The notes under the pieces were generated by a model. It did no database searches. It was not told where the DNA came from and saw only the letters and a program-made list of their open reading frames with translations. Positions 955-53,968 of a DNA stretch of 64,000 nucleotides are shown here, piece after piece. The DNA is from an uncultured Bdellovibrionales bacterium. GTDB taxonomy: Bacteria; Patescibacteriota; Minisyncoccia; Moranbacterales; UBA1568. Every line of letters starts with the position of its first letter. Within the stretch, counting starts at the first letter, position 1. A program made the position numbers and the translations under genes. The stretch is taken from positions 176 to 64,175 of the forward strand of contig CAZCNN010000003.1 of the NCBI GenBank assembly GCA_964500505.1, given 5' to 3'.

Positions 955-993
955 AAAAAGCTAAAAGCTAAAAGCTAAAAGCTAAAAGCTAAA
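955..993. repeat. heptanucleotide tandem repeat (AAAAGCT)x5 ending 3 nt before the ATG of the next gene
   Basis: Direct reading: aaaaagctaaaagctaaaagctaaaagctaaaagctaaa, immediately 5' of the start codon at 996. Confidence 0.9.
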
Positions 994-6184: not shown

Positions 6185-6308
6185 TTTCAGCTTTTTTAAA
6201 AAAAGTGGACCCTGTTAGAAAACTGTCAAAACCGCCTCCTAGTAATTTTCGGCTGTCAGTACCTGAGATATTCTCATATATCAAGTATCGTTGGCAGACT
6301 TCTAACGG

Positions 6309-17493: not shown

Positions 17494-17901
17494 ATGGTAG
17501 CGATCGAATGGAGCAAGAAGTACAGTGTCGGTGTGGAGATGTTTGACGAACAACACAAGGTGTTTTTTGGTATCATCAATGATCTCTATGCCTCGATCAT
17601 GGAGCGCAAAGAACGAGCGGTGCTCGGTGATATCTTTGATCAGTTGCTCAAGTACACGGATTTTCATTTTGAATCCGAAGAGCGTTACTTCGATGAGTTT
17701 CACTATGAGCATGCGGTCGAGCACAAAGAGGCACATCGACTTTTGACCGAGCGACTCCTCGCGCTCAAGGCACGCTGGGACGATGACGCGCTCGATAATC
17801 CCTATGAGCTCCTCGATTTTCTCGAAGACTGGCTGGTAGAACACATCATGGGTATGGACCGGCAGTATCACGAGTGCTTTCATACTCATGGTCTGAAATA
17901 G
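17494..17901 (+). CDS. hemerythrin-like (bacteriohemerythrin) protein
   Basis: His/Glu/Asp diiron ligand pattern of the HHE cation-binding domain: H...HFxxEE...H...H...D. Confidence 0.8.
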   Translation: MVAIEWSKKYSVGVEMFDEQHKVFFGIINDLYASIMERKERAVLGDIFDQLLKYTDFHFESEERYFDEFHYEHAVEHKEAHRLLTERLLALKARWDDDALDNPYELLDFLEDWLVEHIMGMDRQYHECFHTHGLK

Positions 17902-18260
17902 CCAGGGACGCTTGATTTTTGCGTTTTTGGATGGTATCCTCTCACTACAAGCGCTGAAGGAGACCCGTTCGAATTGGTCGGCATCACTCCCTCGTCACCG
18001 TCGCTCGCGAGCGACGTGACTAGCCCCAAGAAGAAAATCATTGCGATGAGTAGAACTTGGCGGGATACCCTCCCACAGTGCTTTGCACAGTGTGGCGGGC
18101 AGGGGCCCGTAATAGCCCACGAATAAGGTTCACTGCAAGGTGGACGAAGCAAGGTGGTACCGTCCCGAGCAATAGTCGAGGGGCCCTTAGCACAGTTTTT
18201 GTGTTAAGGATTTTTTTATTTTCATGGTCAAATTGATGTATTGATTCATTGTTATAAACT

Positions 18261-18638
18261 ATGACTCAAGAGTATCTTACTTTGAACAAGATTAGTTCAT
18301 ACAAGAAAGCCTTTGCGCTTTCCAATGTGGTTTGGGACATTGTGACGTTGTGGGAAGTATTCGCACGTCAGACAGTTGGTTCACAGTTTGCCCGAGCGAT
18401 TGACTCGGTATCGGCAAATATTGCCGAAGGATTCGGGAGATATGGGAAGAAGGATAAGGTATTCTTCTATCGAATTGCCCGAGCCTCTGTATATGAGTCG
18501 CTTGATTGGCTCGAAAAATCCAAGAGGCGGAATCTTATAGAAGAAAAAGATTACGAGTATATCTTCAAAAGCTTGAAGGAGCTACCAAAAGATATCAATA
18601 CATTGATTAAATATACAAACGACCATTTGAGTGACTAG
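18261..18638 (+). CDS. four-helix-bundle protein (TIGR02436 / 23S rRNA intervening-sequence protein family)
   Basis: 125-aa protein with the family pattern ...SVSANIAEGFGR...FYRIARASVYESLDWLE. Confidence 0.7.
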   Translation: MTQEYLTLNKISSYKKAFALSNVVWDIVTLWEVFARQTVGSQFARAIDSVSANIAEGFGRYGKKDKVFFYRIARASVYESLDWLEKSKRRNLIEEKDYEYIFKSLKELPKDINTLIKYTNDHLSD

Positions 18639-18664
18639 CCATAAAACAGTTTAGCAATAAAGCC

Positions 18665-21600
18665 ATGAAAACTTTCAAAAAGGTAGAGTCGCAGGTGAGT
18701 TTTCCGAAGATGGAGGAAGAGATCCTCAAGTTTTGGGACGCGGAAAAAATCTTTCAGAAATCTATCGACCAACGACCGGCTGATAAGTTGTATAGCTTTT
18801 ACGATGGCCCACCGTTTGCCACAGGGACACCGCACTATGGCCATATCGTGGCGAGCGCCATCAAGGACACTGTCCCGCGTTACTTCACCATGAAGGGCTA
18901 CCGAGTAGAGCGCAAATGGGGCTGGGATTGTCATGGTTTGCCTATTGAGAATATTGCTGAGAAGGAGCTCGGGATTACACACAAGAAGCAGATTGAAGAA
19001 CTCGGGGTGGCCAAGTTCAATGAGATCTGTCGTTCCAAGGTGCTCGAGTATGTCGCTGAATGGAAGAAAGTGATCGGTCGTTTCGGCCGGTGGGCCGATA
19101 TGGAGCATCCCTACAAGACCATGGACCGTGACTTTATGGAGTCCGTCTGGTGGGTGTTCAAGGAACTTTGGGACAAGGGTCTCGTCTACGAGAGCTATCG
19201 CACCATGCATATCTGTCCGCGCTGTGAGACAACCCTTTCTCAGTCGGAAGTGGCCGAGGGGTACAAAGATGTGAAGGACCTGGCCGTGACAGCAGAATTT
19301 GCACTGCTCGGGGAACCAGTGAAGACTTCAGTTCTGGCCTGGACGACGACTCCGTGGACTTTGCCAGGGAACGTGGCGCTCGCGGTCAATGAAAACCTGG
19401 ACTACGTCACGATTGAGAAGAAAGATGAAGGTACTGGTGAGCTAGTACGATTTATTGTTGCCAAAGCACTGCTTTCAAAAATCTTTGGTGAAGAAGGGTA
19501 CACAGTAGTGGAAGAATACAAAGGCGCAAAGCTCGTAGGAAAATCCTACAAGCCACTCTTTGACTATTATTCAAAACAGTGTGAAGTGATTGGGGAGAAT
19601 GCCGCGCCCGCAACGCTTTCGCGTAGCGAATGCGGGCGGGGCTGGAAGATTTACCATGCCGATTTTGTCACGACTGACATGGGAACGGGCATCGCCCATG
19701 AAGCCCCGGCCTTTGGTGAGGACGACATGCAGCTCGGCAAAACCAACAACTTACCCTGGGTCCAGCATGTGAACATGGACGGGACGATGAAACCTGAAGT
19801 GACGGACTTCGCCGGGCGACAGGTCAAACCGACCGAGAATCCACAAGAGATGGATGTAGAAATTATCAAGCATCTGGCCAAGGAGGGGACGCTCTTTGCC
19901 AAGGAAAAATATGAGCACAGCTACCCACACTGCTGGCGTTGTGATACGCCACTTCTGAACTACGCGACGTCATCGTGGTTCGTCCGGGTGACCGAGATCA
20001 AGCCCGAGATGCTCGAGCTCGCCAAGAGCATTCATTGGTCCCCGGAGCACATCAAAGATGGTCGCTGGGGCAAGTGGCTCGAGGGTGCGCGGGATTGGTC
20101 CATCAGCCGCCAGCGTTACTGGGCTTCTGTCATGCCGCTTTGGAAGTGTACCTGTGGTGAGCTGAAAGTGATTGGATCGGTCGCTGAACTCGAATCACTG
20201 TCTGGGCAGAAGGTGGAGGATCTCCACAAACACATCGTCGATGAGGTGACGTTTCCGTGCGAGAAATGTGGCGAAACGATGCATCGCATCCCGGACGTGC
20301 TCGATACGTGGTTTGATAGTGGCTCGATGCCGTACGCTCAGAATCATTATCCGTTTGAGCACAAGGAGCAATTTGAGCAAACTTTCCCGGCTAATTTTAT
20401 TGCTGAGGGAGTGGATCAGACACGGGCCTGGTTCTACTATCAGCATGTGATTGGGACAGGGATCAAACACAGTAACGCTTTTCAGAATGTGATCGTAAAC
20501 GGCATCGTCCTCGCCGAGGATGGTAAGAAGATGTCGAAGCGCCTCAAGAACTATCCAGACCCGATGGACATTCTCAATAAGTACGGAGCTGATGCTCTCC
20601 GTTACTATCTCCTTTCGTCGCCAGTAGTGGCCGCTGAGAATCTCAATTTTTCTGAGCGTGACCTCTCCGACATCGTCCGCAATGTCTTCCGCATGCTCTG
20701 GAACTCGTACTCGTTTTTCACGACCTATGCGAGTATCGACAACTGGACGCCCAAGACGGATGCCAAGCCGTCGGATAATCTGATGGACCGCTGGATTCTC
20801 TCGGAACTCCAGCTCCTGATACAGGAAGTGGATGGTGCCATGGAGCAGTACGAACTAAACAAAGCAACACGTGCCTTTGCGCCATTTGTCGATAATCTCT
20901 CCAACTGGTACATCCGACGTGGACGCAAGCGTTTCTGGAAGAGTGAAGATGATGGTGATAAAGAACAGGCCTACCAGACCCTCTATACCGTCCTTGTCAC
21001 GCTCTCGAAATTGATGGCGCCATTCACGCCGTTTCTTGCTGAGGAAATTTACAAGAATTTAACAGGTGAAAGTTCTGTTCATCTTGCGGATTATCCGGTG
21101 GCTGATGAGGCCTTGATAGACGTGGATGTTATTAACCAGATGATTACAGCTAGAGAAGCAGTTAAGCAAGGGTTGGCGGTTCGTTCTGAAAAGAAAATAA
21201 AAGTTAGGCAACCACTTGCTGACGCGTTTGTTCTAACAACAGTAGATTTATCGAATGATGTTCGAGAAATTATTGAAGATGAATTGAATGTAAAAAAAGT
21301 TACCCTGTTTAAAGATAGAGATCTTTTTGTACAGGAGATTCTAAAAGAGTTTGGAGGAAATCGTAAACACTTCGTGGCTGAAGATGACGAGAGAGAACTT
21401 GATAGATTGGTTGCTGGAACTGCTTTAAATGTTGAAATCACTCCCGAGTTGAAACTCGAAGGAGAGATGCGGGAAGTGGTACGGGCTATCCAAGAGGGTC
21501 GCAAGAAGGCCAAGTTCAATGTGGAGGACCGCATCATCCTCGGCTACATCGGCAAGGATGAAGTCTTCGCCAAGTTCGAAACCGAAATCGCTCATGAAGT

Positions 21601-21703
21601 CCTCGCCACAACTGTACAAAAAGGCGCTCTCACCGATGCCGAGTATCAAGAAACCGTTACTCTCGATGACGAAGAATTTACTTTGAGTCTCAGACGAGTA
21701 TGA
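18665..21703 (+). CDS. ileS: isoleucine--tRNA ligase (type 2, about 1012 aa)
   Basis: HYGH (HIGH) and KMSKR (KMSKS) motifs and an editing-domain insertion. The length is typical of IleRS. Confidence 0.95.
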   Translation: MKTFKKVESQVSFPKMEEEILKFWDAEKIFQKSIDQRPADKLYSFYDGPPFATGTPHYGHIVASAIKDTVPRYFTMKGYRVERKWGWDCHGLPIENIAEKELGITHKKQIEELGVAKFNEICRSKVLEYVAEWKKVIGRFGRWADMEHPYKTMDRDFMESVWWVFKELWDKGLVYESYRTMHICPRCETTLSQSEVAEGYKDVKDLAVTAEFALLGEPVKTSVLAWTTTPWTLPGNVALAVNENLDYVTIEKKDEGTGELVRFIVAKALLSKIFGEEGYTVVEEYKGAKLVGKSYKPLFDYYSKQCEVIGENAAPATLSRSECGRGWKIYHADFVTTDMGTGIAHEAPAFGEDDMQLGKTNNLPWVQHVNMDGTMKPEVTDFAGRQVKPTENPQEMDVEIIKHLAKEGTLFAKEKYEHSYPHCWRCDTPLLNYATSSWFVRVTEIKPEMLELAKSIHWSPEHIKDGRWGKWLEGARDWSISRQRYWASVMPLWKCTCGELKVIGSVAELESLSGQKVEDLHKHIVDEVTFPCEKCGETMHRIPDVLDTWFDSGSMPYAQNHYPFEHKEQFEQTFPANFIAEGVDQTRAWFYYQHVIGTGIKHSNAFQNVIVNGIVLAEDGKKMSKRLKNYPDPMDILNKYGADALRYYLLSSPVVAAENLNFSERDLSDIVRNVFRMLWNSYSFFTTYASIDNWTPKTDAKPSDNLMDRWILSELQLLIQEVDGAMEQYELNKATRAFAPFVDNLSNWYIRRGRKRFWKSEDDGDKEQAYQTLYTVLVTLSKLMAPFTPFLAEEIYKNLTGESSVHLADYPVADEALIDVDVINQMITAREAVKQGLAVRSEKKIKVRQPLADAFVLTTVDLSNDVREIIEDELNVKKVTLFKDRDLFVQEILKEFGGNRKHFVAEDDERELDRLVAGTALNVEITPELKLEGEMREVVRAIQEGRKKAKFNVEDRIILGYIGKDEVFAKFETEIAHEVLATTVQKGALTDAEYQETVTLDDEEFTLSLRRV

Positions 21704-28158: not shown

Positions 28159-28187
28159 AGATTCTAGATTCAAGATTCTAAATTCTA
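28159..28187. repeat. heptamer tandem array (AGATTCT-like x4) ending 5 nt before start codon
   Basis: agattctagattcaagattctaaattcta, read directly. Confidence 0.8.
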
Positions 28188-28192
28188 TCCAC

Positions 28193-29464
28193 ATGAAATA
28201 CCAGAAACACACCCTGAAGAATGGACTCCGGATTTTGCTCGCGCCGATGCAAGAGACCCAGACGGCGACAGTGATCGTCATGACCGGGGTAGGGTCACGC
28301 TATGAGACGCGGGCTGAGAATGGTCTGGCGCATTTCCTCGAGCACATGTTCTTCAAGGGGACAGCCAAGCGTCCGACGGCGATGGATATCTCTAAGGAAC
28401 TCGATGCCATCGGCGCCGAGTACAATGCCTATACCGGCAAAGATCGCACCGCCTACTATGCCAAAGTCGAGGCTCATCACTGGGACACAGCACTGGATGT
28501 GGTCAGTGATCTGTTTCTCAATGCCAAGATTGAGCAAGAAGAAATCGACCGTGAGCGCGGACCAGTTCTCCAAGAGCTCAATATGTACGAGGATATGCCC
28601 ATGCGCCATATCGGTGACCTCTGGGAGCTCCACCTCTATGGGGATACGCCGCTTGGCTGGGAGATCATCGGCCCCAAGGAAAACCTCAAGCGGTTTCAGA
28701 GGCGTGACTTTATCAAGTACCTCAATCGTGGTTATGTCGCCGAAAACGTGGTGATTGGCGTCGCTGGCAAGATTGATCCCAAGGTGGTGAAGAAAGAAAT
28801 CGAAAAGCACTTTGCGGGTATCAGAACCGGCAAGAAACCCGTGTTCAAGAAAAACACTAAGAAGCAGTCAGTCCCCGAGGTCTACGTCCAGAACAAGAAA
28901 ACTGACCAGACTCAGCTCATCCTCGGCGTCCGGTCGTACGATATGTATCACCCGGACCGCTATGTGCTCGCAGTCCTCTCGACCCTCCTCGGGGGCGGGA
29001 TGTCGAGCCGACTCTTTATGGCGGTGCGGGAACGGCGCGGACTGGCCTATAATGTCCACACCATGACCGAGAGCTATCATGACGCTGGCTATCTCGCTAC
29101 CCAGGCAGGAGTGGAGCACGAGAACCTGGAGCAGACTATCACGGTCATCCTCGATGAGTACCGGAAAATCGCGACCGAAAAAGTGGATACGGAGGAACTC
29201 AAGAAAGCCAAAGAATATATCAAGGGCAAGCTCGCTATGGGCCTCGAGGGCTCGGACGACGTGGTGGAGTATCTCGTCAGTCAGGAGACCATCCGCGGTG
29301 AGATCACCCTCCCCGAAGAAAAGCGGAAGCACATTGATCGTGTGACGGCCGACGACATTCTCCGCGTGGCTCAGGATATCTTCGTAAATAAGAAGTTGAA
29401 CTTGGCAGTAATAGGACCAAAGGCATCCGAAGCTAAGCTTCGGAGAATGTTGAATGTTGAATGA
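28193..29464 (+). CDS. M16-family zinc metallopeptidase (pitrilysin/insulinase-like)
   Basis: Inverted zinc motif HFLEH near the N-terminus. Two-domain length of 424 aa. Confidence 0.8.
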   Translation: MKYQKHTLKNGLRILLAPMQETQTATVIVMTGVGSRYETRAENGLAHFLEHMFFKGTAKRPTAMDISKELDAIGAEYNAYTGKDRTAYYAKVEAHHWDTALDVVSDLFLNAKIEQEEIDRERGPVLQELNMYEDMPMRHIGDLWELHLYGDTPLGWEIIGPKENLKRFQRRDFIKYLNRGYVAENVVIGVAGKIDPKVVKKEIEKHFAGIRTGKKPVFKKNTKKQSVPEVYVQNKKTDQTQLILGVRSYDMYHPDRYVLAVLSTLLGGGMSSRLFMAVRERRGLAYNVHTMTESYHDAGYLATQAGVEHENLEQTITVILDEYRKIATEKVDTEELKKAKEYIKGKLAMGLEGSDDVVEYLVSQETIRGEITLPEEKRKHIDRVTADDILRVAQDIFVNKKLNLAVIGPKASEAKLRRMLNVE

Positions 29465-29493
29465 AGATGTCGATTCAACAGTGGATGTAGCCT

Positions 29494-29523
29494 ATATTCA
29501 AAATTCTACATTCTAAATTCATC
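29494..29523. repeat. heptamer tandem array (ATTCTA-type) ending 6 nt before start codon
   Basis: tatattcaaaattctacattctaaattcatc. Confidence 0.75.
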
Positions 29524-29529
29524 ACACAT

Positions 29530-30565: not shown

Positions 30566-31252
30566 ATGGATGCTGGAATTTTGTACATCGTCGCGACTCC
30601 TATCGGCAACCTCGGCGATATCACCCTCCGCGCCTTGGAGACACTCAAGAGCGTAGATACGGTGCTTTCCGAAGATACGCGCGTGACTGGGAATCTCCTC
30701 CGGCACTTTGAAATCTCAAAGCCCCTCGTTTCGTTTCATGAGCACACCGAGACTGACAAAGCCGGCAAGCTCATCGCCCGGATGCTCGCGGGTGAGAGTA
30801 TGGCCCTCGTGACGGACGCTGGCACTCCAGGGATATCTGATCCCGGGAATGTCCTGGTAGCCTTGGCGATCGAGTCAGGTGTCCGAGTGGTGCCGATACC
30901 GGGAGCGAATGCTCTCGGGGCCATCGTCAGTGTAGCGGGGATTGATATGCGGGAGTTTGCGTTCCTCGGGTTTCCGCCTCACAAGAAAGGTCGGGAGACA
31001 TTCTTCCGGGGTGTGGCCGAGACTACGATGCCGGTCATCTATTATGAGTCTCCTCACCGGGTGATCAAGAACCTCGAGCTCCTGATGGAACTCGGTCCCA
31101 ACAAAAAACTCGTCCTAGGACGAGAGCTAACCAAAATATTTGAAGAAGTGGTGCGCGGGAGCGTCAGTGAAGTAAAGAGGTATCTTGAGAGTAAAGCAGG
31201 GAAAATGAAGGGGGAGTTTACGATAGTAGCGTATGAAGAAAGAAGAATGTAG
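30566..31252 (+). CDS. rsmI: 16S rRNA (cytidine1402-2'-O)-methyltransferase
   Basis: Tetrapyrrole-methylase fold with the N-terminal motif YIVATPIGNLGDITLRALETL. Confidence 0.85.
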   Translation: MDAGILYIVATPIGNLGDITLRALETLKSVDTVLSEDTRVTGNLLRHFEISKPLVSFHEHTETDKAGKLIARMLAGESMALVTDAGTPGISDPGNVLVALAIESGVRVVPIPGANALGAIVSVAGIDMREFAFLGFPPHKKGRETFFRGVAETTMPVIYYESPHRVIKNLELLMELGPNKKLVLGRELTKIFEEVVRGSVSEVKRYLESKAGKMKGEFTIVAYEERRM

Positions 31253-31323
31253 AATGTGGAATGTCGGACAGAACGTTTAAAAATGACGCGGACCCGACTG
31301 CGTTTGCAATCAGGTCCGGGGGC

Positions 31324-34009: not shown

Positions 34010-34939
34010 ATGGCGGACTATAAGCTATCAGCTATGCATGACATCCACACTCACCTCTACTGGCAATCGTACGACACGGATCGGGACGAGGTGGTTCGGC
34101 GTGCCCGCGAGGCCGGGGTGGACAAGATGCTCGTCATCGGCTGTACGGTAGAGGAGAGTCGGCAGGCGATCACGGTGGCAGAGCAGTACCCACAGGTATA
34201 TGCTTCTGTTGGTATCCACCCAAGCTTTTTTAACGAACTGGTTGAAAAATCACCAACGACCAAAATCCAAGATACAAATAATCACCAATCACCAATATCC
34301 AATCTCAAAGGGCTCACGAGTGAGCTACGGGAAATGGCCAAGCACGAGAAAGTAGTGGCGATAGGGGAGTGCGGGTTGGAATATTACGCACATAACTCGG
34401 AACAACCCATTACTGAAGCGCAGAAAGCTGCTCAAAAAGCAGGATTATTGGCTCAGATAGCCCTGGCTGAAGAGCTAGAGCTCCCGATGATCCTTCATTG
34501 TCGTGCCTCTACCGGCAGTGCTGATGCCTACGAGGACCTCTTCGAAATCCTTAGTAATCAACATTCTATATTCGATATTCAACATTCTTCCTGTATCCTC
34601 CACTGCTACATGGGCGATACCGAGGTGACGGAGAGGTTCCTGTCTCTCCCCAATGTTTACTTCTCCTTTACCGGCAACATCACCTATCCGGTGAAGCAGG
34701 TCGTTGTGGGGACGAGGGATGATTTGACCGAAACAGTGAAGATGATTCCGCTTGAGCGGATATTTACCGAGACGGATTGTCCATTTCTCACCCCCCAGTC
34801 CCATCGAGGGGAGCGGAACGAGCCGGCCTATGTGGCCGAGGTACTCGAGTGTATTGCCAGGCTCCACGGGGTCGAGCCAAAAGTGGTCGAACAGTTGACA
34901 GAATCAAATTTCAAAAAGGTCTTTCCCATGGTACAATAG
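34010..34939 (+). CDS. TatD-family metal-dependent hydrolase (DNase)
   Basis: HTHL at the N-terminus and the conserved HCR/HCY metal ligands. It contains a low-complexity insert and an in-frame copy of the intergenic ATTCTA repeat. Confidence 0.8.
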   Translation: MADYKLSAMHDIHTHLYWQSYDTDRDEVVRRAREAGVDKMLVIGCTVEESRQAITVAEQYPQVYASVGIHPSFFNELVEKSPTTKIQDTNNHQSPISNLKGLTSELREMAKHEKVVAIGECGLEYYAHNSEQPITEAQKAAQKAGLLAQIALAEELELPMILHCRASTGSADAYEDLFEILSNQHSIFDIQHSSCILHCYMGDTEVTERFLSLPNVYFSFTGNITYPVKQVVVGTRDDLTETVKMIPLERIFTETDCPFLTPQSHRGERNEPAYVAEVLECIARLHGVEPKVVEQLTESNFKKVFPMVQ

Positions 34940-36458: not shown

Positions 36459-37211
36459 ATGGAAATATCAATTGCTGCGGAAAAATTGTTTAGTATCGGG
36501 GCGATGCCTGTGACCAATGCTCTTCTCATTGGTGTGATGGTAAGCGCCCTCCTCATCTGGGTCATCACTCGGGCGACGCGAAATCGCACGCTTGTGCCAC
36601 GAGGCGTGCAGAACGTGATCGAGATCGTCTTTGAAGCACTCCTCAATCTCGTGGAGAGCGTCACTCAGGACAAGAAGCAAGCCCGCCAGTTTTTCCCTCT
36701 CATCGCGACGATATTTCTCTTTGTCCTCATCTCGAATTGGGCGGGACTCCTCCCGGGCCTCGGGACCGTCGGCGTCTACGGTGAGCACAATGGTCACCAC
36801 ACCATCATCCCGTTTCTTCGGAGTACCTCGGCCGACCTCAACTTTACCCTGGCGCTCTCACTCATCGCGGTATTGTCAGTACAGTTTGCTGGGATCGCCG
36901 CTCTCGGAATCATGAAGTATGGCAAAAAGTTCTTGATCAGTCCGTTTCACAAGCCCTATGGCATCGGGACGGCGGTCGGAATCCTCGAGCTCATCTCTGA
37001 GATAGGCAAGATCATCTCCTTTACCTTTCGTCTCTTTGGGAACGTCTTTGCGGGGGAAGTCCTCCTCACCGTCATGCTCCACCTGGTACCCTATTTCTTG
37101 CCCCTGCCGTTTATGTTCCTCGAGGTGTTCGTGGGGTTCATCCAGGCGGTGGTATTTGCCATGCTGACTCTGGTGTTCCTCAAGATGGCGACGCTCGAGC
37201 CAGAACATTAG
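36459..37211 (+). CDS. atpB: F0F1 ATP synthase subunit a
   Basis: 250 aa, polytopic, with the conserved essential Arg region (...FRLFGNVFAGEVLL...). Confidence 0.9.
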   Translation: MEISIAAEKLFSIGAMPVTNALLIGVMVSALLIWVITRATRNRTLVPRGVQNVIEIVFEALLNLVESVTQDKKQARQFFPLIATIFLFVLISNWAGLLPGLGTVGVYGEHNGHHTIIPFLRSTSADLNFTLALSLIAVLSVQFAGIAALGIMKYGKKFLISPFHKPYGIGTAVGILELISEIGKIISFTFRLFGNVFAGEVLLTVMLHLVPYFLPLPFMFLEVFVGFIQAVVFAMLTLVFLKMATLEPEH

Positions 37212-37272
37212 GGAAAGTAGACAAAAGTGCGATTTCGGTGTAGAATAGGTCAGTTTCATCAAGAAGAATTAA

Positions 37273-37521
<249 letters not shown>

Positions 37522-37562
37522 ACGAACTCACAACTGACAACGAACAACCAACAACGAAAGGA
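37522..37562. repeat. heptamer tandem array (NACAACN x5) between atpE stop and 4HB gene start
   Basis: acgaact cacaact gacaacg aacaacc aacaacg, read directly. It is the inverse complement of the array downstream of the 4HB gene. Confidence 0.8.
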
Positions 37563-37564
37563 AT

Positions 37565-37924
37565 ATGAATAAGTTCCGATTTCTTGAGTGGAAAGTGTAC
37601 AAGGATGCACAAGGGTTGTTTCTCGTAATAGTAGAGATTCTGAAGAGGCTCTCAAGAGAACAAAGATACGAGTTAGGAAGCCAAGTGAGTCGATCATCTC
37701 TATCAGTTGTGCTCAACATTGCAGAAGGAAGCGGAAAGACTTCGGATAAAGAGATGAATCGCTATTTCGAAATTTCACTCGGTTCTTTGTATGAAACACT
37801 GGCAGCTATTGATACACTGAAACAGATGAAAGTGGTGAGTGAATCAGAATGGTCGATAGTCTATGAGAAAGTCGAAGAAATAGCACGTCAACTGGGTGGT
37901 TTTAAGAAAAAGTTGAACAAGTAA
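37565..37924 (+). CDS. four-helix-bundle protein (TIGR02436 family) inserted inside the atp operon
   Basis: Same family pattern as 18261..18638 (...SLSVVLNIAEGSGK...YFEISLGSLYETLAAID...). Confidence 0.7.
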   Translation: MNKFRFLEWKVYKDAQGLFLVIVEILKRLSREQRYELGSQVSRSSLSVVLNIAEGSGKTSDKEMNRYFEISLGSLYETLAAIDTLKQMKVVSESEWSIVYEKVEEIARQLGGFKKKLNK

Positions 37925-37926
37925 AA

Positions 37927-37974
37927 GGTTTAAGTTGTAGGTTGTAGGTTGTAAGTTAATGGTTGTAGGTTAAC
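37927..37974. repeat. heptamer tandem array (GTTGTAG x6) between 4HB gene stop and atpF start
   Basis: ggtttaa gttgtag gttgtag gttgtaa gttaatg gttgtag gttaacg. Confidence 0.85.
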
Positions 37975-37977
37975 GAT

Positions 37978-38463
37978 ATGGAAGTGCTCGCAAAACTCGG
38001 TGTTGATTGGAAACTCCTCCTCGCGCAGGCAGTGAACTTTGCTATTCTTTTTTGGGTGCTCCGTCGCTATGCGTATCAGCCGATGCTCGACTTTCTTGAG
38101 AAGCGGACAGCCCGTATCGAGCAGGGACTGAAAGACGCTGAGGCAGCCACGGCCAAGCTCTCAGAGGTCGCAGCCAAAGAAGAGACCGTGCTCATGACTG
38201 CCCGGAAAGAAGCCAAAGCCATCATCGCTTCGGCTGAGGCGGGAGCCAAAAAGCGTGACGCCGAGCGAGCGGAGGAGACCGAGGCCAAAGTAAAGCAGCT
38301 CCTCACTGAAGCAGAGGCAAAGATTCGTGAAGAAAAGGAGAAAGCCATGATGAGTGCCAAAGCGGAAATCGGCGAGCTCGTCATGCTTTCGGTCGAAAAA
38401 ATCCTCAAGGAGAAGATAGATTCAGCCAAAGAAAAGGAGCTTTTGGATAAAATAGCTCGGTAG
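37978..38463 (+). CDS. atpF: F0F1 ATP synthase subunit b
   Basis: N-terminal TM then a long charged helix. Its operon position is standard. Confidence 0.85.
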   Translation: MEVLAKLGVDWKLLLAQAVNFAILFWVLRRYAYQPMLDFLEKRTARIEQGLKDAEAATAKLSEVAAKEETVLMTARKEAKAIIASAEAGAKKRDAERAEETEAKVKQLLTEAEAKIREEKEKAMMSAKAEIGELVMLSVEKILKEKIDSAKEKELLDKIAR

Positions 38464-38493
38464 CTTTGGAAATTGTAATTTGGAGTTTGGTGT

Positions 38494-38904
38494 TTGATTG
38501 GTAGTATGCATCCGACTGTCACGCAATACGCACAAGCGCTCGAGGAGCTCTCACTCGGGACATCGCCATCGCCTTTGACACTGGTGAAGAATTTGGTGCG
38601 GTTGCTCAAGCGTGATGGTCGATCTTCACTTCTCCCCGCTATCCTCGGAGCGCTCGAATCTCGTGAAGCGGAGCACAGTGGAGTGCTCGCGGTCCGGATC
38701 GTCACAGCACACACAGCAGATGGTACCACCGAGAAACTCCTCAGGAAGAAGGCAGAGGCGCTCTTCTCGGGGAAAAAGATAGTGGCTACGTTTGGAGTGG
38801 ACCCATCAGTCATCGGTGGCGTGCGCTTTGAGACGGAGGAAGCGGTGTATGACGCGACGGTTGCGACAGAACTCGCCAAATTGAGGAAGAGTATAAGCAA
38901 ATAA
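38494..38904 (+). CDS. atpH: F0F1 ATP synthase subunit delta (OSCP)
   Basis: Operon position between atpF and atpA. Short delta-like protein. Confidence 0.7.
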   Translation: MIGSMHPTVTQYAQALEELSLGTSPSPLTLVKNLVRLLKRDGRSSLLPAILGALESREAEHSGVLAVRIVTAHTADGTTEKLLRKKAEALFSGKKIVATFGVDPSVIGGVRFETEEAVYDATVATELAKLRKSISK

Positions 38905-38907
38905 TGT

Positions 38908-38975
38908 ATTAGAATCTATAATTTGGAATGTTGGTTTCAAAATTCCACATTCGACATTCTAATCCGAACATCTTA
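38908..38975. repeat. imperfect inverted pair of heptamer arrays (TAGAAT / ACATTC type) in atpH-atpA spacer
   Basis: attagaatctataatttggaatgttgg ... ccacattcgacattctaatcc. The arms are reverse-complementary. Confidence 0.7.
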
Positions 38976-38980
38976 TCACT

Positions 38981-40480
<1,500 letters not shown>

Positions 40481-40502
40481 TATTTTTTGAGAATTTCAAA
40501 CG

Positions 40503-40580
40503 AAGAATGTTGAATGTAGAATGAAGAATGTAGGTTTCGATGCATTTCTCAATATTCTATATTCGAAATTCAAGATTCAA
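40503..40580. repeat. inverted pair of heptamer arrays (GAATGTA x4 / ATTCTAT-type) in atpA-atpG spacer
   Basis: aagaatgttgaatgtagaatgaagaatgtagg ... aatattctatattcgaaattcaagattcaa. Confidence 0.75.
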
Positions 40581-40585
40581 TTGTT

Positions 40586-41512
40586 ATGGCAAGTGCACGA
40601 GACATCAGGAGACGCATCAAAGGCGTGAAAGGCACGGGTAAGATTACCCGGGCCATGGAGATGATTTCGGCTGTCAAAATGCGCAAAGCTGTAGGGAACG
40701 TCCTTGCTATTCGTCCATATGCACAGAGTGCTATCGAACTCCTCCGTCAGCTCGACCGAGCCGTCGGCGAAGAGCGTCATCCGCTCGTGACTGAGCGTCC
40801 GGTGAAGAAGGAACTCTACGTAGTAGTGACGAGCAATCGTGGACTCTGTGGGGCGTTTAATGCTCAGATCGTGAAGCGCCTGCGTCAGGTACTGAAAGAA
40901 GATGAAGGTCGGGAGCGCGCGTTTATCACCATCGGCAAGAAGGGCGAGAACGCGGTCCGGCGGATGAATGGTGAAATCGTCGCTTCATTCCCAGATGTTC
41001 TCACGTCACCGACCGCCGAGGGGATGCGCGGAGTAGCACACGTCATTATGGATGAATTCACCTCACTTCGAGTGGATCGTGTCGTGGTTATCTACACTGA
41101 CTTTATCTCGATGCTTTCCCAGGAGGTCAAAGTGCGAGCGCTCCTCCCGGTGGCCCTCAGTGATACCAAGAAGGCCATGCATGAAATCACGTCGCTCACG
41201 AGCGACGGTGACGAGATGAGACAGAACAATAGTAGGGGTACCACTGAAACATCGGAGTATACGATAGAACCATCCCCACAGAGCGTACTCGAGCAGATGA
41301 TCCCGCGCTTGATTGAGATGGAGCTCTACCATGCTATTCTCGAGTCCAATGCCTCGCAGGAGTCGGCTCGCATGATGGCGATGCGGAACGCGACAGATGC
41401 CGCCAAGGATATGGTGTCTGACCTGACGCTTGCCTACAACCAGCTCCGCCAGGGCAAGATTACTCAGGAAATTGCTGAGCTCTCAGCTGGTATGGCAGCA
41501 GTGCAAAAGTAG
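40586..41512 (+). CDS. atpG: F0F1 ATP synthase subunit gamma
   Basis: MASARDIRRRIKGVKGT... is a gamma N-terminus. 308 aa with an insertion. Confidence 0.9.
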   Translation: MASARDIRRRIKGVKGTGKITRAMEMISAVKMRKAVGNVLAIRPYAQSAIELLRQLDRAVGEERHPLVTERPVKKELYVVVTSNRGLCGAFNAQIVKRLRQVLKEDEGRERAFITIGKKGENAVRRMNGEIVASFPDVLTSPTAEGMRGVAHVIMDEFTSLRVDRVVVIYTDFISMLSQEVKVRALLPVALSDTKKAMHEITSLTSDGDEMRQNNSRGTTETSEYTIEPSPQSVLEQMIPRLIEMELYHAILESNASQESARMMAMRNATDAAKDMVSDLTLAYNQLRQGKITQEIAELSAGMAAVQK

Positions 41513-41582
41513 AATGTAGAATTTTGAATTTAGAATTTTGGAACCCAAAACCGACATTCTGCATTCTAAATTCTATATTCTT
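41510..41582. repeat. inverted pair of heptamer arrays (TAGAATT x4 / NCATTCT x4) in atpG-atpD spacer
   Basis: tagaatgtagaattttgaatttagaattttgg-aacccaaaacc-gacattctgcattctaaattctatattctt. Confidence 0.8.
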
Positions 41583-41612
41583 CAAGGAAAGAGGAAGGGG
41601 ATATGTAATTGA

Positions 41613-43043
<1,431 letters not shown>

Positions 43044-43045
43044 GT

Positions 43046-43492
43046 ATGATTAAGCTCAAAGTCGTAACTCCCGAAAAGATGGTGGTGGAGCAGGACGTCT
43101 ATCAGGCGACTCTGCCGGTTCTCCATGGCGAGGTGACGCTTCTCCCGAACCATGTGCCGTATATCGGCGCTCTTTCGGCTGGGGAGATTATGCTCCGATC
43201 CGAACCAAATGGGCCCGAGACGAGTCTCGCGACCTCGGGTGGCTTTGTGGAGTTTCATGACAATGTCCTTTCGATTCTCGCTGATACGGCCGAACGCGCC
43301 GAAGATATTGACGTCACACGTGCCGAAGAGGCTCGCAAACGTGCCGAGGACTTGAAGAAAGAACGAGTCACTATGGACGATGAAGAGTATGCTCGGACCG
43401 CGGCTATGATCGAGAAAGAGATGGCTCGGGTCAAGGTCGCTCGTCGTCACCAGGCCCGTCGTGGACTGAGTCCCGAGAGTTTGGGGCAGTAG
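43046..43492 (+). CDS. atpC: F0F1 ATP synthase subunit epsilon
   Basis: Beta-sandwich plus C-terminal helices. It is the last gene of the operon. Confidence 0.85.
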   Translation: MIKLKVVTPEKMVVEQDVYQATLPVLHGEVTLLPNHVPYIGALSAGEIMLRSEPNGPETSLATSGGFVEFHDNVLSILADTAERAEDIDVTRAEEARKRAEDLKKERVTMDDEEYARTAAMIEKEMARVKVARRHQARRGLSPESLGQ

Positions 43493-43564: not shown

Positions 43565-43647
43565 GTGCGGGGTTGACCCCGTTAGAGAACGCTGCGCCCT
43601 TGGCGCGACTTCAGTCGCTCCTAGCGACTTTTCTCTAACGGGGTTGA
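43565..43647 (+). repeat. structured repeat element copy 1 (about 80 nt): 13-bp outer inverted repeat CCCCGTTAGAGAA/TTCTCTAACGGGG enclosing two small hairpins; preceded by GCGGGGTTGACCCC motif
   Basis: Read directly. A second copy lies at 53878..53968 with compensatory changes in the first inner hairpin. Confidence 0.8.
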
Positions 43648-46133: not shown

Positions 46134-46215
46134 GCCCCAGCTTATAGCTGATAGGGAATAGCTCATAGAAAAATTCAGGGTACCCATTCGACAGGCTTAG
46201 AGTTGTCTGCTGACA

Positions 46216-46254
46216 AGAAAGAAGCCCCGGCGCGGTTGTGCGCAAGGGCGGGGT
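46216..46254 (-). terminator. intrinsic terminator for minus-strand small membrane protein gene
   Basis: Minus-strand ccccgccc...gcgccgggg stem followed by cttctttctt. Confidence 0.5.
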
Positions 46255-46263
46255 TGTGGGGGG

Positions 46264-46446
46264 TCAGAAGGCCCGGAAGTAGAGCTTGGCTCCGCTGGTC
46301 AGGAACAGGCCACCCAAGATGAGCGCCAAGGGCGACCACACAGGTACTGAAGCGAATGCTCCAGCGAGAATGAGGAACACGCCAATGCCGGCGACGATGG
46401 CGCTAGACGCCAAGTACCCTGCTATCTGTGGGTCGATACGAGTCAT
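46264..46446 (-). CDS. small membrane protein (60 aa, 2 TM)
   Basis: aggaggg RBS before the ATG. MTRIDPQIAGYLASSAIVAGIGVFLILAGAFASVPVWSPLALILGGLFLTSGAKLYFRAF. Confidence 0.55.
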   Translation of the reverse strand: MTRIDPQIAGYLASSAIVAGIGVFLILAGAFASVPVWSPLALILGGLFLTSGAKLYFRAF

Positions 46447-46631
46447 GATGACCCTCCTGTTGTGTGCCAGAATCTGGCACGGGGTGAATTTTTAAGGCAC
46501 TGGTAACGACCCATTATAGCAGAAAAATGATAAAAAGTCAAGTGTCGATGTTCAGCAAGGAAAAGTGCTAGAATACGGGTAAGAATGGATTTAACCTAAA
46601 AGCTATAAGCTAACTCCTAATTCCTACCCCT

Positions 46632-50569: not shown

Positions 50570-50652
50570 GCCGAGGTGGTGGAATGGTAGACACACGGGA
50601 CTCAAAATCCCGCGATAGCAATATCATGAGGGTTCAAGTCCCTCCCTCGGCA
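50570..50652 (+). tRNA. tRNA-Leu (anticodon CAA), long variable arm, CCA not encoded
   Basis: Acceptor GCCGAGG/CCTCGGC, anticodon stem CGGGA/TCCCG with loop CTCAAAA, a long variable arm, T-arm GAGGG-TTCAAGT-CCCTC, discriminator A. Confidence 0.85.
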
Positions 50653-50743
50653 CTGGGAATTAACGGAAAACAGGCATTTCGAAGCCTGTTTTTTGTATGA
50701 AAAATTGATAATCAGGGGTCAATGGACTATAATAGAAGCAATG

Positions 50744-50818
50744 GAATTGGGAATATCGAATGGAGAATTTCGAATGAAAAATTCTACCCTATATTCAACA
50801 TTCTATATTCAACATTCT
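50744..50818. repeat. inverted heptamer arrays incl. direct 14-mer TATATTCAACATTC x2, ending 10 nt before parA start
   Basis: gaattgggaatatcgaatggagaatttcgaatg ... attctaccctatattcaacattctatattcaacattc. Confidence 0.75.
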
Positions 50819-50827
50819 TGCAAACAA

Positions 50828-53877: not shown

Positions 53878-53968
53878 GAGGGTTTTGACGCGGTGGACCC
53901 CGTTAGAGAACGCTGTGCCTTCGGCACGACTTCAGTCGCTGGGAGCGACTTTTCTCTAACAGGGTGGA
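53878..53968 (+). repeat. structured repeat element copy 2 (same family as 43565..43647)
   Basis: accccgttagagaacgctgtgccttcggcacgacttcagtcgctgggagcgacttttctctaacaggg: same architecture, with covarying base pairs. Confidence 0.8.

What the first reader, a model, noticed from the sequence alone, without database searches (positions are those of the whole stretch)
37522..37976. Four-helix-bundle (TIGR02436) gene inserted in the atp operon and precisely bracketed by inverted heptamer arrays
Between the atpE stop (37521) and the atpF start (37978) lies a 4HB-family ORF. It is flanked on the left by the array (N-ACAAC-N)x5 and on the right by its inverse complement (GTTGTAG)x6. This is a cargo-between-inverted-arrays layout that looks like a small cassette insertion. 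Members of this protein family were first noticed inside 23S rRNA intervening sequences, so an association with insertion-prone elements is plausible. A second 4HB gene (18261..18638) sits between a leader-like region and ileS.
Basis: partly seen in the sequence, partly recalled or inferred. Interest (0 to 1): 0.55.

Follow-up and report, generated by a model that had tools for sequence, protein, structure and literature searches.

The report
Repeat-bracketed four-helix-bundle gene cassette
A small gene of unknown function sits inside the ATP synthase operon between two mirror-image runs of 7-base repeats, and this gene-plus-repeats layout proves to be a general property of the gene family across bacteria, linking it to the long-unexplained excess of 7-base repeats between bacterial genes.

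Summary
A 119-aa PF05635/TIGR02436 four-helix-bundle (4HB) gene (37565-37924) fills the atpE-atpF spacer of a Candidatus Moranbacteria (CPR) genome. It lies between an (ACAACNN) array and a reverse-complementary (NNGTTGT) array, which can pair as a ~24-30 bp imperfect stem.

The gene and arrays behave as one unit. Homologs keep ACAAC-type arrays in 15 different genomic contexts, and the closest relatives have empty or differently filled atpE-atpF spacers.

The pattern is family-wide. In 146 distinct 4HB loci, period-7 arrays flank 53-60% of genes against 3% of random windows and 24% of other intergenic regions. No other period is enriched. The arrays are usually reverse complements, and the heptamer identity tracks the protein phylogeny. 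Hosts are always co-oriented transcripts: 16S/23S rRNA, tRNA clusters, and operon spacers such as groES-groEL and cas operons.

The best reading is an rRNA-IVS-type cassette living in an mRNA operon. Its arms probably loop the ORF out of the transcript for RNase III-type processing; this step is inferred, not shown.

Cargo-less heptamer hairpins are also common in this genome. The library papers I read (full-text searches plus term look-ups within the papers) do not link heptamer repeats to this protein family.

The parts
37294..37521 (+). atpE (F0 subunit c), upstream host gene. Its stop codon TAA (37519-37521) abuts the left array.
   Evidence: PF00137 67.9 bits, TIGR01260 70.3 bits.
37522..37557 (+). 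Left arm: about 5 heptamer units (ACGAACT CACAACT GACAACG AACAACC AACAACG), with ACAAC cores at 37530, 37537, 37544 and 37551.
   Evidence: Sequence. TRF period 7. Pattern search. Inverted repeat I1/I2.
37556..37564 (+). Purine-rich GAAAGGAAT between the left arm and the 4HB start codon. It is a likely ribosome-binding site that would lie on the loop side of the stem.
   Evidence: Sequence and position in the predicted fold. The function is inferred.
37565..37924 (+). Cargo gene: a 119-aa four-helix-bundle protein (PF05635 / TIGR02436) with the conserved motif Q..R...S...NIAEG.
   Evidence: AF2 model pLDDT 93.4. Foldseek TM 0.89-0.93 to Xcc0516, PDB 2GSC. 86% aa identity to L011 while synonymous-codon identity is only 0.50, which indicates purifying selection.
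37926..37971 (+). Right arm: about 6.7 heptamer units (NNGTTGT), the reverse complement of the left arm. GTTGT cores are at 37934, 37941, 37948 and 37962. The last unit supplies an AGG 8 nt before the atpF start.
   Evidence: TRF. Inverted repeats. Duplex -30.4 kcal/mol, z = -3.2. The MFE and centroid folds both close the element with this stem.
37978..38463 (+). atpF (F0 subunit b), downstream host gene.
   Evidence: PF00430 81.2 bits, TIGR01144 86.5 bits.
38464..38505 (+). Cargo-less heptamer array (TTTGGNN-like, direct only) filling the atpF-atpH spacer. Strains differ by an exact 7-nt indel.
38905..38980 (+). Cargo-less hairpin with GAATNTN / NACATTC heptamer arms in the atpH-atpA spacer. 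Some strains carry a divergent version although the flanking coding sequence is the same.
40481..40585 (+). Cargo-less heptamer-arm hairpin in the atpA-atpG spacer.
   Evidence: z = -2.7.
41505..41585 (+). Cargo-less heptamer-arm hairpin in the atpG-atpD spacer.
   Evidence: z = -7.2, reached by 0 of 200 shuffles.
18261..18638 (+). Second 4HB gene (125 aa), lying just upstream of and co-oriented with a class I aminoacyl-tRNA synthetase gene (IleRS-like, 18665-21703). Its flanking repeats are degenerate.

Best explanation
The feature is an IVS-type cassette. It consists of a PF05635 four-helix-bundle gene plus its own two flanking arrays of about 4-6 heptamer units in mutually inverted orientation, sitting in the atpE-atpF spacer.

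It has no detected promoter-like or terminator-like site of its own, so it is read as part of the atp polycistronic transcript. In that RNA the two arms can pair in any register, because they are repeats. This draws the 3' end of atpE next to the 5' end of atpF and loops out the 4HB ORF with its ribosome-binding site.

By analogy with the S23p-carrying intervening sequences of 23S rRNA, which have the same anatomy and are cut out by RNase III, the stem is probably a double-strand RNase processing site. That would release the 4HB message and separate the upstream and downstream atp segments. The insertion would then be tolerated in an essential operon.

Shown here:
- the anatomy of the element;
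- its unit character (the arrays travel with the gene);
- family-wide recurrence;
- strict co-orientation with host transcripts;
- purifying selection on the protein;
- gain/loss at this site and spread by homologous recombination of the conserved flanks.

Inferred only: RNA pairing in vivo, RNase III cleavage, and any binding of the 4HB protein to the arrays.
For: Anatomy and significance of the arms.

No terminator-like site, and no promoter-like site on the + strand, inside 37522-37977.

Unit character:
- L011 and L012 hold the cassette in the same slot with arrays.
- L013 holds it behind bacA with the same arrays.
- 26 cassettes with proteins at least 50% identical sit in 15 flank contexts. 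By Pfam these include after atpD, groES-groEL and T2SSE-T2SSF.

Empty or alternative sites.

Family-wide statistics (146 distinct loci):
- Period-7 arrays lie upstream of 60% and downstream of 53% of 4HB genes, against 3.3% of random windows. Only period 7 is enriched.
- Inverted complementarity exceeds the control 99th percentile in 55% of loci.
- Intergenic regions next to 4HB genes have arrays in 57% of cases, against 24% of other intergenic regions (p = 3e-9).
- Heptamer identity follows the protein phylogeny (Mantel rho 0.357, 0 of 999 permutations).

Host transcripts and orientation:
- SSU and LSU rRNA hosts are on the same strand.
- All 41 adjacent tRNAs are on the same strand.
- The upstream neighbour is co-oriented in 89 of 102 loci.

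RNA-level hint: sense-strand G.U mismatches outnumber the antisense equivalent 127 to 80, where arm composition predicts 108 to 99 (p = 0.008).

The classical 23S helix-45 IVS of Azospirillum lipoferum shows the same inverted heptamer arrays.

For the Coxiella IVS, PMC4990558 reports an S23p ORF, tandem GACAGAT heptamers, a 28-bp terminal stem and RNase III excision.

The protein is under purifying selection. Its fold matches Xcc0516, BT_0352 and Avd. The presence/absence polymorphism coincides with a roughly 1.8-kb divergent recombination tract.
Against: - No transcript data exist for this organism.
- No RNase III gene was found among the window ORFs tested, and the rest of the genome is not available.
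- The stem here is interrupted about every 7 bp by mismatched variable positions (20 Watson-Crick pairs and 4 mismatches in the best 24-nt alignment). That is not an ideal RNase III substrate.
- Across 43 loci, permuting the order of units in one arm does not reduce complementarity (mean z = -0.09, p = 0.66). Selection is therefore visible on the core motif and its orientation, not on unit-by-unit base pairing. This fits protein-binding sites as well as it fits a stem.
- The G.U excess is modest and the loci are not phylogenetically independent.
- About 27% of 4HB loci show no array. One plasmid example has direct, not inverted, arrays (Pseudanabaena). The window's second 4HB gene has only weak arms.
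Confidence: 0.55

Rival explanations
1. DNA-level mobile cassette. The arrays are subterminal repeats in inverted orientation that act as protein-binding sites on DNA, as at the ends of Tn7, Mu or CACTA/Ac elements. The binding protein could be the 4HB protein or a host factor. The element would move or be copied as DNA, and the RNA stem would be incidental.
For: The same gene-plus-arrays unit is found in 15 unrelated contexts, and empty sites exist. The conserved 5-nt core with 2 variable positions, and the lack of unit-by-unit covariation between arms, look like binding sites rather than a precise helix. The heptamer type co-varies with the protein.
Against: No transposase, integrase or nuclease gene accompanies the cassette. 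No target-site duplication is visible at filled versus empty atpE-atpF sites. Orientation relative to host transcripts is nearly invariant (41/41 tRNAs, all rRNAs), which a DNA transposon would not show without strong selection. The only documented presence/absence event here is explained by homologous recombination. There is a sense-strand G.U excess.
Confidence: 0.2
2. The heptamer hairpins are a generic host feature of intergenic spacers in this genome, serving mRNA processing or stability, or arising as slippage-prone SSRs. The 4HB gene merely landed in, or was retained within, one of them, so gene and arrays are not a unit.
For: Cargo-less heptamer arrays or hairpins occupy the atpF-atpH, atpH-atpA, atpA-atpG and atpG-atpD spacers and at least five other spacers in the window. 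24% of other intergenic regions in 4HB loci have arrays. Relatives have different cargo-less arrays at the same atpE-atpF site. Arrays change by exact 7-nt indels between strains. Papers read here report intergenic heptamer SSR excess in many bacteria without mentioning 4HB genes.
Against: The ACAAC-type heptamer is unique to the cassette within the window and differs from the GAATGTN type of the solo hairpins. It follows the 4HB gene into other contexts and other genomes. Arrays are 4.2-fold enriched (odds ratio) next to 4HB genes relative to other intergenic regions of the same loci. The heptamer type tracks the protein phylogeny.
Confidence: 0.15
3. The gene is an Avd accessory protein of a diversity-generating retroelement (or a remnant of one), and the repeats are unrelated.
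For: There are weak matches to the Avd models (NF033474 23.1 bits; PF22296 23.1 bits) and a structural match to Avd (4DWL, 8UBE; TM about 0.78).
Against: Both Avd-specific models score far below their cutoffs (80 and 40 bits). The immediate neighbours are atpE and atpF, with no reverse transcriptase and no template/variable repeat pair adjacent. The best structural matches are the stand-alone proteins Xcc0516 and BT_0352.
Confidence: 0.02

Closest known systems
Intervening sequences (IVS) of bacterial 23S/16S rRNA genes that carry an S23p / 23S_rRNA_IVP ORF (Leptospira, Coxiella, Brucella, Xanthomonas; CPR rRNA insertions)
   Same: The cargo protein family is the same (PF05635). Both have an ORF bracketed by complementary termini that form a stem. 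Both have tandem heptamers next to the ORF: Coxiella GACAGAT x2-3 with strain-variable copy number (PMC4990558), and Azospirillum 23S IVS GAGGACG/GATGACA with their inverse. Both are co-oriented with a highly transcribed host RNA. 4HB-bearing insertions in CPR 16S/23S genes were recovered here with the same arrays.
   Different: The host is a protein-coding operon spacer, not an rRNA helix, so nothing has to be removed for the host product to function. The ribosome-binding site lies inside the loop rather than in the cleaved stem as in Coxiella. RNase III excision is untested here.
Intergenic heptameric tandem repeats (cyanobacterial STRR; GGGAATC in Xanthomonas and GGGGA(T/C)T in Nostoc; TAACTGA in Beggiatoaceae; GGGACCG and MTYCTGA elements of Geobacter metallireducens)
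   Same: Both are tandem 7-nt units, typically about 4-5 copies, that are intergenic, sometimes arranged as inverted pairs, and variable in length between strains (PMC4692102, PMC4679880, PMC2700814). The window's solo arrays behave the same way.
   Different: Term look-ups within those papers found no mention of a linked gene family. Here the arrays are statistically and physically tied to PF05635 genes, with a heptamer type specific to each protein lineage.
DGR accessory variability determinant (Avd)
   Same: Avd is a homologous four-helix-bundle fold. As a pentamer it is part of the DGR reverse-transcriptase ribonucleoprotein (PDB 8UBE title).
   Different: No reverse transcriptase or TR/VR pair is present here. 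The Avd-specific HMMs score below cutoff.
4HB (23S_rRNA_IVP) genes reported inside cas operons
   Same: This is the same situation of a 4HB gene wedged between co-oriented genes of an operon (PMC3936711). Examples re-examined here are cas6-4HB-cas4 in Anabaena sp. 90 and cmr2-4HB-cmr3 in Picosynechococcus. Both carry inverted heptamer arrays.
   Different: Those reports treat the gene as a candidate CRISPR-associated function. The present data suggest a generic operon-spacer cassette instead.
MITEs / REP-BIME-type intergenic palindromes
   Same: Both are short intergenic inverted repeats in operon spacers, with cargo-less copies abundant in the same genome.
   Different: The arms are built from tandem heptamers whose sequence differs from site to site. 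There are no conserved termini and no target-site duplications.

Membership tests
PF05635 / TIGR02436 four-helix-bundle (23S rRNA IVS protein) family | HMM score above the curated cutoff | tested here: met
   TIGR02436 85.1 bits (cutoff 24); PF05635 88.8 bits (cutoff 33.8).
PF05635 / TIGR02436 four-helix-bundle (23S rRNA IVS protein) family | Four-helix-bundle fold like Xcc0516 (2GSC) and BT_0352 (2RLD) | tested here: met
   AF2 pLDDT 93.4, with four long helices preceded by a short 4-residue helix. Foldseek TM 0.89-0.93 to 2GSC and 0.76-0.86 to 2RLD.
PF05635 / TIGR02436 four-helix-bundle (23S rRNA IVS protein) family | Conserved motif GxxRxxxSxxxNxxE (PMC3936711) | tested here: met
   Q40, R43, S47, N51-I-A-E-G55 are invariant or nearly so in alignments A2 and A3.
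PF05635 / TIGR02436 four-helix-bundle (23S rRNA IVS protein) family | Homopentameric ring | not tested
   Only a monomer was modelled. The pentamer is known for Xcc0516 (cited in PMC4990558).
rRNA intervening sequence (IVS) element | Inserted in a helix of a 23S or 16S rRNA gene | tested here: not met
   The host is the atpE-atpF spacer. Rfam finds no rRNA in the window.
rRNA intervening sequence (IVS) element | Complementary termini that form a stem enclosing the element | tested here: met
rRNA intervening sequence (IVS) element | Excision from the transcript by RNase III without religation | not testable with these tools
   No transcript data are available. Known for Coxiella.
rRNA intervening sequence (IVS) element | Optional S23p/4HB ORF in the loop, co-oriented with the host RNA | tested here: met
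DGR Avd | Avd-specific HMM above cutoff | tested here: not met
   NF033474 23.1 bits (cutoff 80); PF22296 23.1 bits (cutoff 40).
DGR Avd | Adjacent reverse transcriptase and TR/VR repeat pair | tested here: not met
   The neighbours are atpB, atpE, atpF and atpH in the window and in all 10 strain contigs.
Transposon / MITE | Terminal inverted repeats plus target-site duplication, with a transposase in cis or trans | tested here: inconclusive
   Inverted arrays are present. No duplication is seen at filled versus empty sites. There is no transposase in the cassette, and a trans-acting enzyme cannot be excluded.
Intergenic heptameric SSR (STRR-like) | Tandem 7-nt units, intergenic, with copy number variable between strains | tested here: met
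   The 7-nt indels occur in the neighbouring solo arrays, whereas the cassette's own arms are invariant in 10 strains.
Intrinsic terminator | GC-rich hairpin followed by a T run | tested here: not met
   No terminator-like site lies in 37522-37977.

The most novel reading that the evidence does not exclude
PF05635 four-helix-bundle proteins are sequence-specific binders of heptamer arrays. In this reading the homopentameric ring contacts about five tandem units, one 5-nt core per subunit with 2-nt variable linkers, much as TRAP reads spaced triplets. Each 4HB lineage would recognise its own heptamer, both beside its gene and at cargo-less arrays elsewhere in the genome. The family would then be the missing trans-acting partner of the unexplained intergenic heptamer repeats of bacteria (STRR and similar). 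It would define a new class of protein-plus-repeat elements that colonise transcribed spacers of rRNA, tRNA and housekeeping operons.
Probability: 0.15. Interest if true: 0.9.

Novelty: new variant of a known kind. Interest (0 to 1): 0.7.

Why it matters
Two puzzles would be joined. PF05635/TIGR02436 is a very large bacterial protein family with solved structures but no known function outside DGR Avd. Heptameric tandem repeats are the over-represented class of long SSRs in many bacterial genomes, and one of the papers read here says no detailed study of them exists (PMC4692102).

Showing that the two are physically linked gives both problems a concrete experimental handle. The arrays are family-wide, period-specific and orientation-specific, and the heptamer co-varies with the protein. 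One can ask what the protein binds and whether the stem is cleaved.

The result also changes how some 4HB genes should be read. 4HB genes found inside cas operons, tRNA clusters, groESL, atp and rRNA genes look like one kind of operon-spacer cassette rather than as functionally associated genes. Finally, it shows that IVS-type elements are not restricted to rRNA.

Tried and rejected
- Ten strain-level contigs were aligned to look for covariation in the arms. All are 100% identical over 37480-38000, so they carry no information.
- Rfam at gathering threshold on the window, and at E<=1 on 17850-18720, found no known RNA family at either 4HB locus. A T-box upstream of the second 4HB gene therefore remains only my visual impression of 'GGTGGTACCG'.
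- RNAduplex energies without composition control were misleading in GC-rich loci. They were replaced by alignment scores and shuffles.
- A test for unit-by-unit complementarity of the variable positions was negative.
- I looked for RNase III among ten window ORFs and found none.
- tblastn of the window's own protein against PLSDB plasmids found nothing. A Bacteroidota-type homolog from L084 was used instead.
- The first multi-locus Rfam call failed and was repeated on fewer loci.
- The 'landing pad by homology' idea is not supported in this window. Solo hairpins here use GAATGTN, not ACAACNN. Across loci, though, solo arrays share the local cassette's heptamer more often than chance (22% against 5%).
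- DGR/Avd, intrinsic terminator and chance explanations were rejected (see membership tests).
- Ten full-text searches and term look-ups within the papers they returned turned up no statement linking heptamer repeats to this protein family. The library is incomplete, so prior description elsewhere cannot be excluded.
Full report
**1. What is in the window**

The region 36459-43492 is an F-type ATP synthase operon, all on the + strand, in the order atpB, atpE, [4HB], atpF, atpH, atpA, atpG, atpD, atpC. Names attached to close AtpF homologs place the organism in Candidatus Moranbacteria/Moraniibacteriota, a CPR/Patescibacteria lineage.

Between the atpE stop (37519-37521) and the atpF start (37978) lies one ORF, 37565-37924, of 119 aa.
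- It scores 85.1 bits on TIGR02436 (cutoff 24) and 88.8 bits on PF05635 (cutoff 33.8).
- It falls far below the cutoffs of the Avd-specific models.
- An AlphaFold2 model built on 39 homologs is confident (pLDDT 93.4), with four long helices preceded by a short 4-residue helix.
- It superposes on the stand-alone family members Xcc0516 (2GSC, TM 0.89-0.93) and BT_0352 (2RLD), and more loosely on DGR Avd.

The 43-nt left spacer holds four exact ACAAC cores spaced 7 nt apart plus one degenerate unit. The 53-nt right spacer holds four exact GTTGT cores plus three degenerate units.
- The arms are inverted repeats: 24 nt at 83% complementarity.
- As RNA they give a duplex of -30.4 kcal/mol, z = -3.2, matched by 1 of 300 dinucleotide shuffles.
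- Both the MFE and the centroid fold of 37516-37982 close the whole element with this stem.
- ACAACNNACAAC occurs five times here and only once (with a mismatch) elsewhere in the 64 kb.

**2. The arrays belong to the gene**

Ten strain-level contigs carry the identical protein in the same slot and are 100% identical over 521 nt, so they carry no covariation information.

More distant relatives are informative.
- L011 (4HB 86% identical, AtpF 62%) and L012 (4HB 75%) have the gene in the same atpE-atpF slot, again with ACAAC-type arrays on both sides.
- L013 carries a 74%-identical 4HB gene behind a bacA gene (PF02673), a different context. It still has (ACAACNN)n upstream and (NNGTTGT)n downstream.
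- Among 26 cassettes whose proteins are at least 50% identical to the window's, the outer flanks fall into 15 unrelated contexts.
- By Pfam these contexts include: downstream of atpD, the groES-groEL spacer, T2SSE-T2SSF, upstream of ndk, downstream of an RNase H gene, and upstream of holA.
- Others lie between tRNA genes or in 16S rRNA.

**3. Empty sites and mode of gain or loss**

AtpF homologs were used to fetch relatives without the gene.
- L095 (AtpF 80% identical) has a 10-nt spacer (TAA TTTTTCTGCC ATG).
- L098 (91%, the closest) has 64 nt containing a (TCATGAN)x4 array.
- L096 (AtpF 76-78% identical) has a 106-nt hairpin whose arms are (NAAACAG) heptamers.
- L097 (AtpF 66-68% identical) has a 64-nt spacer.

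No target-site duplication is visible at any of these.

Between the window and L011, synonymous-codon identity at conserved residues is 0.50 for the 4HB gene. That is similar to atpE (0.57) and atpF (0.48). Amino-acid identity is 86% for 4HB, against 62% for AtpF and 39% for AtpH. The cassette is therefore old at this site, inherited vertically, and encodes a protein under strong purifying selection.

Against L098 the genomic background is 94-98% identical. A tract from about 36460 to about 38280 (atpB, atpE, the site, and the first 300 nt of atpF) drops to 77-85%. The presence/absence difference between near-identical strains thus coincides with an imported allele. This points to homologous recombination through the conserved flanking genes rather than to transposition.

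**4. The pattern is family-wide**

Two collection scans returned 160 further 4HB loci with proteins 29-64% identical to the query. They are mostly Patescibacteria. They also include Bacteroidota, Desulfobacterota, Binatia, Ignavibacteria and MAGs labelled Gammaproteobacteria.

Results over 146 distinct loci:
- A period-7 tandem array (score >=7) lies within 100 nt upstream of 60% of 4HB genes and downstream of 53%. The figure for 670 random windows is 3.3%.
- Scanning periods 4-12, only period 7 is raised. The mean best score is 8.5, against about 3 for every other period and for the controls.
- Upstream flanks aligned to the reverse complement of downstream flanks exceed the control 99th percentile in 55% of loci. 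Alignment in direct orientation shows no shift in median score.
- Of 59 loci with arrays on both sides, 34 have consensus heptamers that are reverse complements at 6 or more of 7 positions. The figure for cross-locus pairs is 8%.
- Against the stricter control of other intergenic regions in the same loci, arrays are still enriched: 57% against 24%, Fisher p = 3e-9.
- The heptamer differs between lineages (ACAACNN, TTAACAN, GTTCATN, ATCGCNN, GGTCTNC, CAGACAA and others). It tracks the protein phylogeny (Mantel rho 0.357, 0 of 999 permutations reach it).
- Arrays have a median of 4.1-4.3 units. About five positions of each unit are conserved and two are variable.

The pattern is not an artefact of metagenome assembly. 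Complete plasmids of cultured organisms show it:
- Anabaena sp. 90: cas6-4HB-cas4 with GGTGACA / TGTCACC arrays.
- Nostoc sp. ATCC 53789, Nostoc punctiforme, Leptolyngbya and Riemerella.
- Picosynechococcus: cmr2-4HB-cmr3.

A Pseudanabaena plasmid is an exception with direct arrays. The Azospirillum lipoferum 4B record is a classical 23S helix-45 IVS and has inverted GAGGACG/GATGACA arrays.

**5. Hosts are transcripts, and orientation is fixed**

- Rfam confirms SSU rRNA hosts (L031, L038, L118, L124, L125, L139, L156) and an LSU host (L159), all on the 4HB strand.
- 26 loci have a tRNA within 150 nt, and all 41 such tRNAs are co-oriented with the 4HB gene.
- The nearest upstream ORF is co-oriented in 89 of 102 loci, and the nearest downstream ORF in 55 of 82.
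- In the window there is no terminator-like site, and no promoter-like site on the + strand, within the cassette.

The cassette therefore appears to depend on read-through transcription from its host.

**6. How it probably works**

The anatomy matches the S23p-bearing rRNA IVS. In Coxiella, an ORF of this family is preceded by 2-3 tandem GACAGAT heptamers whose number varies between strains. It is enclosed by a 28-bp terminal stem and cut out of the 23S precursor by RNase III (PMC4990558). I therefore read the window's element as the same kind of element living in an mRNA.

In this reading the arms pair and loop out the ORF. The ORF's GAAAGGAA ribosome-binding site lies on the loop side of the stem. 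A double-strand-specific RNase probably cuts the stem.

Two tests bear on RNA pairing.
- Supporting, modestly: among transition mismatches between arms, those that are G.U in the sense transcript outnumber those that would be G.U only in the antisense, 127 to 80. Arm composition predicts 108 to 99 (p = 0.008).
- Cautionary: permuting the order of units in one arm does not lower complementarity (43 loci, mean z = -0.09, p = 0.66). What is conserved is the core motif and its inverted orientation, not a particular register.

The second result is compatible with a register-free, slippage-tolerant stem. It is equally compatible with arrays acting as protein-binding sites on RNA or DNA.

Three observations suggest, but do not show, that the 4HB protein recognises its own arrays. 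The heptamer type co-varies with the protein. A typical array has about 4-5 units. Solved family members are homopentamers (stated in PMC4990558).

**7. Cargo-less arrays**

Heptamer arrays without a 4HB gene are common in this genome.
- atpF-atpH: 38464-38505, direct array only.
- atpH-atpA, atpA-atpG and atpG-atpD: hairpins.
- Also 28159-28187, 29441-29525, 31233-31264 and 50735-50820.

Most of these use GAATGTN / NACATTC units. They evolve quickly. Strains differ by exact 7-nt indels, and one hairpin has been replaced wholesale. The cassette itself is invariant across the same strains.

Across loci, distal solo arrays share the local cassette's heptamer type in 22% of cases, against 5% for cross-locus pairs (p = 2e-5, after excluding arrays near other 4HB genes). 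The simple 'generic host hairpin' rival is weakened by the specificity of the ACAAC type to the cassette. Still, solo arrays show that the repeats have a life beyond the gene.

**8. Relation to the literature**

Already known from papers read here:
- S23p-bearing IVSs and their RNase III excision.
- 23S_rRNA_IVP ORFs in CPR rRNA insertions.
- 23S_rRNA_IVP genes inside cas loci.
- Unexplained over-representation of intergenic heptameric repeats in Xanthomonas, Nostoc, Beggiatoaceae and Geobacter.

None of these papers, as far as my term look-ups within them show, connects the repeats with the protein family. None describes the cassette in mRNA operons or tRNA clusters as an IVS-like unit. The library is incomplete, so I call this a new variant of a known kind, not categorically new.

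**9. Verdict**

- The cassette interpretation is supported and generalised.
- The processing mechanism is inferred by analogy, with confidence about 0.55.
- Interest is 0.7.

Noticed in passing
window 38464-38505, 38905-38980, 40481-40585, 41505-41585, 28159-28187, 29441-29525, 31233-31264, 50735-50820: Cargo-less period-7 arrays, mostly paired as hairpins with GAATGTN / NACATTC arms, fill many intergenic spacers, including four more junctions of the atp operon. Some overlap the last codons of the upstream gene.
   Followed up: yes
window 38479-38485 and 31233-31264 versus L001/L003/L006/L007 and L004: Strains differ by exact 7-nt indels in solo arrays (TTTGGAG; GAATGTG). The atpH-atpA hairpin is replaced by a divergent version in L001/L006/L007 although the flanking coding sequence is conserved. 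The 4HB cassette is invariant in the same strains.
   Followed up: yes
window 46134-46631 (leuS-glmS spacer) and L001:18875-19801: A second 'cargo between inverted heptamer arms' layout. AGCTTAT AGCTGAT ... arms lie right after the leuS stop, and AAAAGCT ATAAGCT lies before glmS (duplex -22.6 kcal/mol). They bracket a strain-variable insert: 498 nt here with a small antisense membrane-protein-like ORF, and 927 nt with two antisense genes in L001. The cargo is not a 4HB gene.
   Followed up: partly
window 34268-34320 and 34556-34590 (inside the TatD ORF 34010-34939): Heptamer-like arrays lie in frame inside a TatD-family gene, encoding ...TTKIQDTNNHQSPISNL... and ...NQHSIFDIQHSS.... The second uses the same ACATTC/ATATTC units as the solo hairpin arms. 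Some strains also have a separate 12-aa insertion further downstream.
   Followed up: partly
window 17900-18664: The second 4HB gene sits between a structured GC-rich region and an IleRS-like gene. That region contains 'GCAAGGTGGTACCG', which looks T-box-like to my eye and is followed by a hairpin plus T run. If so, the gene lies in the 5' leader of a housekeeping gene. Rfam gives no hit even at E<=1.
   Followed up: partly
window ~36460-38280 versus L098: A roughly 1.8-kb tract spanning atpB-atpE-site-5' atpF is only 77-85% identical to the nearest cassette-free strain. The surrounding sequence is 94-98% identical. This looks like a homologous-recombination import that coincides with cassette presence/absence.
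   Followed up: yes
window 43575-43644 and 53896-53965: A 70-nt GC-rich palindromic element (…CCCCGTTAGAGAA…AGTCGCT…AGCGACT…TTCTCTAACGGGG…) occurs twice at 88.6% identity in two unrelated intergenic regions. It may be a MITE-like repeat unrelated to the heptamer arrays.
   Followed up: partly
window 956-993; L185 (Pseudanabaena galeata plasmid): A perfect (AAAAGCT)x5.4 array precedes an ORF start in the window. A near-identical heptamer (AAAGCTA / AAAGCCA, more than 10 copies each side, direct orientation) flanks a 4HB gene between cas6 and cas4 in a cyanobacterial plasmid.
   Followed up: no
L179, L185, L186 (cyanobacterial plasmids): 4HB genes wedged inside cas operons (cas6-4HB-cas4; cmr2-4HB-cmr3) carry flanking heptamer arrays, inverted in L179 and L186 but in direct orientation in L185. 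Published 'CRISPR association' of this family may reflect operon-spacer insertion rather than function.
   Followed up: partly
L032/L033/L121/L126/L130/L132/L147; L053/L069/L166/L170/L173: There are recurrent tRNA-cluster sites. tRNA-Thr-4HB-tRNA-Tyr occurs in seven loci and tRNA-Ser-4HB-tRNA-Ser in five. The cassette arrays fill the whole inter-tRNA spacer.
   Followed up: partly
L156:4041-4501: A group I intron (Rfam RF00028, 53.7 bits) lies in the same CPR SSU rRNA gene that also carries a 4HB cassette near its 5' end.
   Followed up: no
window 6308-6710 (-) and 50570-50653 (+): A tmRNA gene (tag ANFITKTKNAIAQAFAPSYSLALA) and a tRNA-Leu(CAA). These are the only Rfam/ARAGORN RNA genes in the window.
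   Followed up: no
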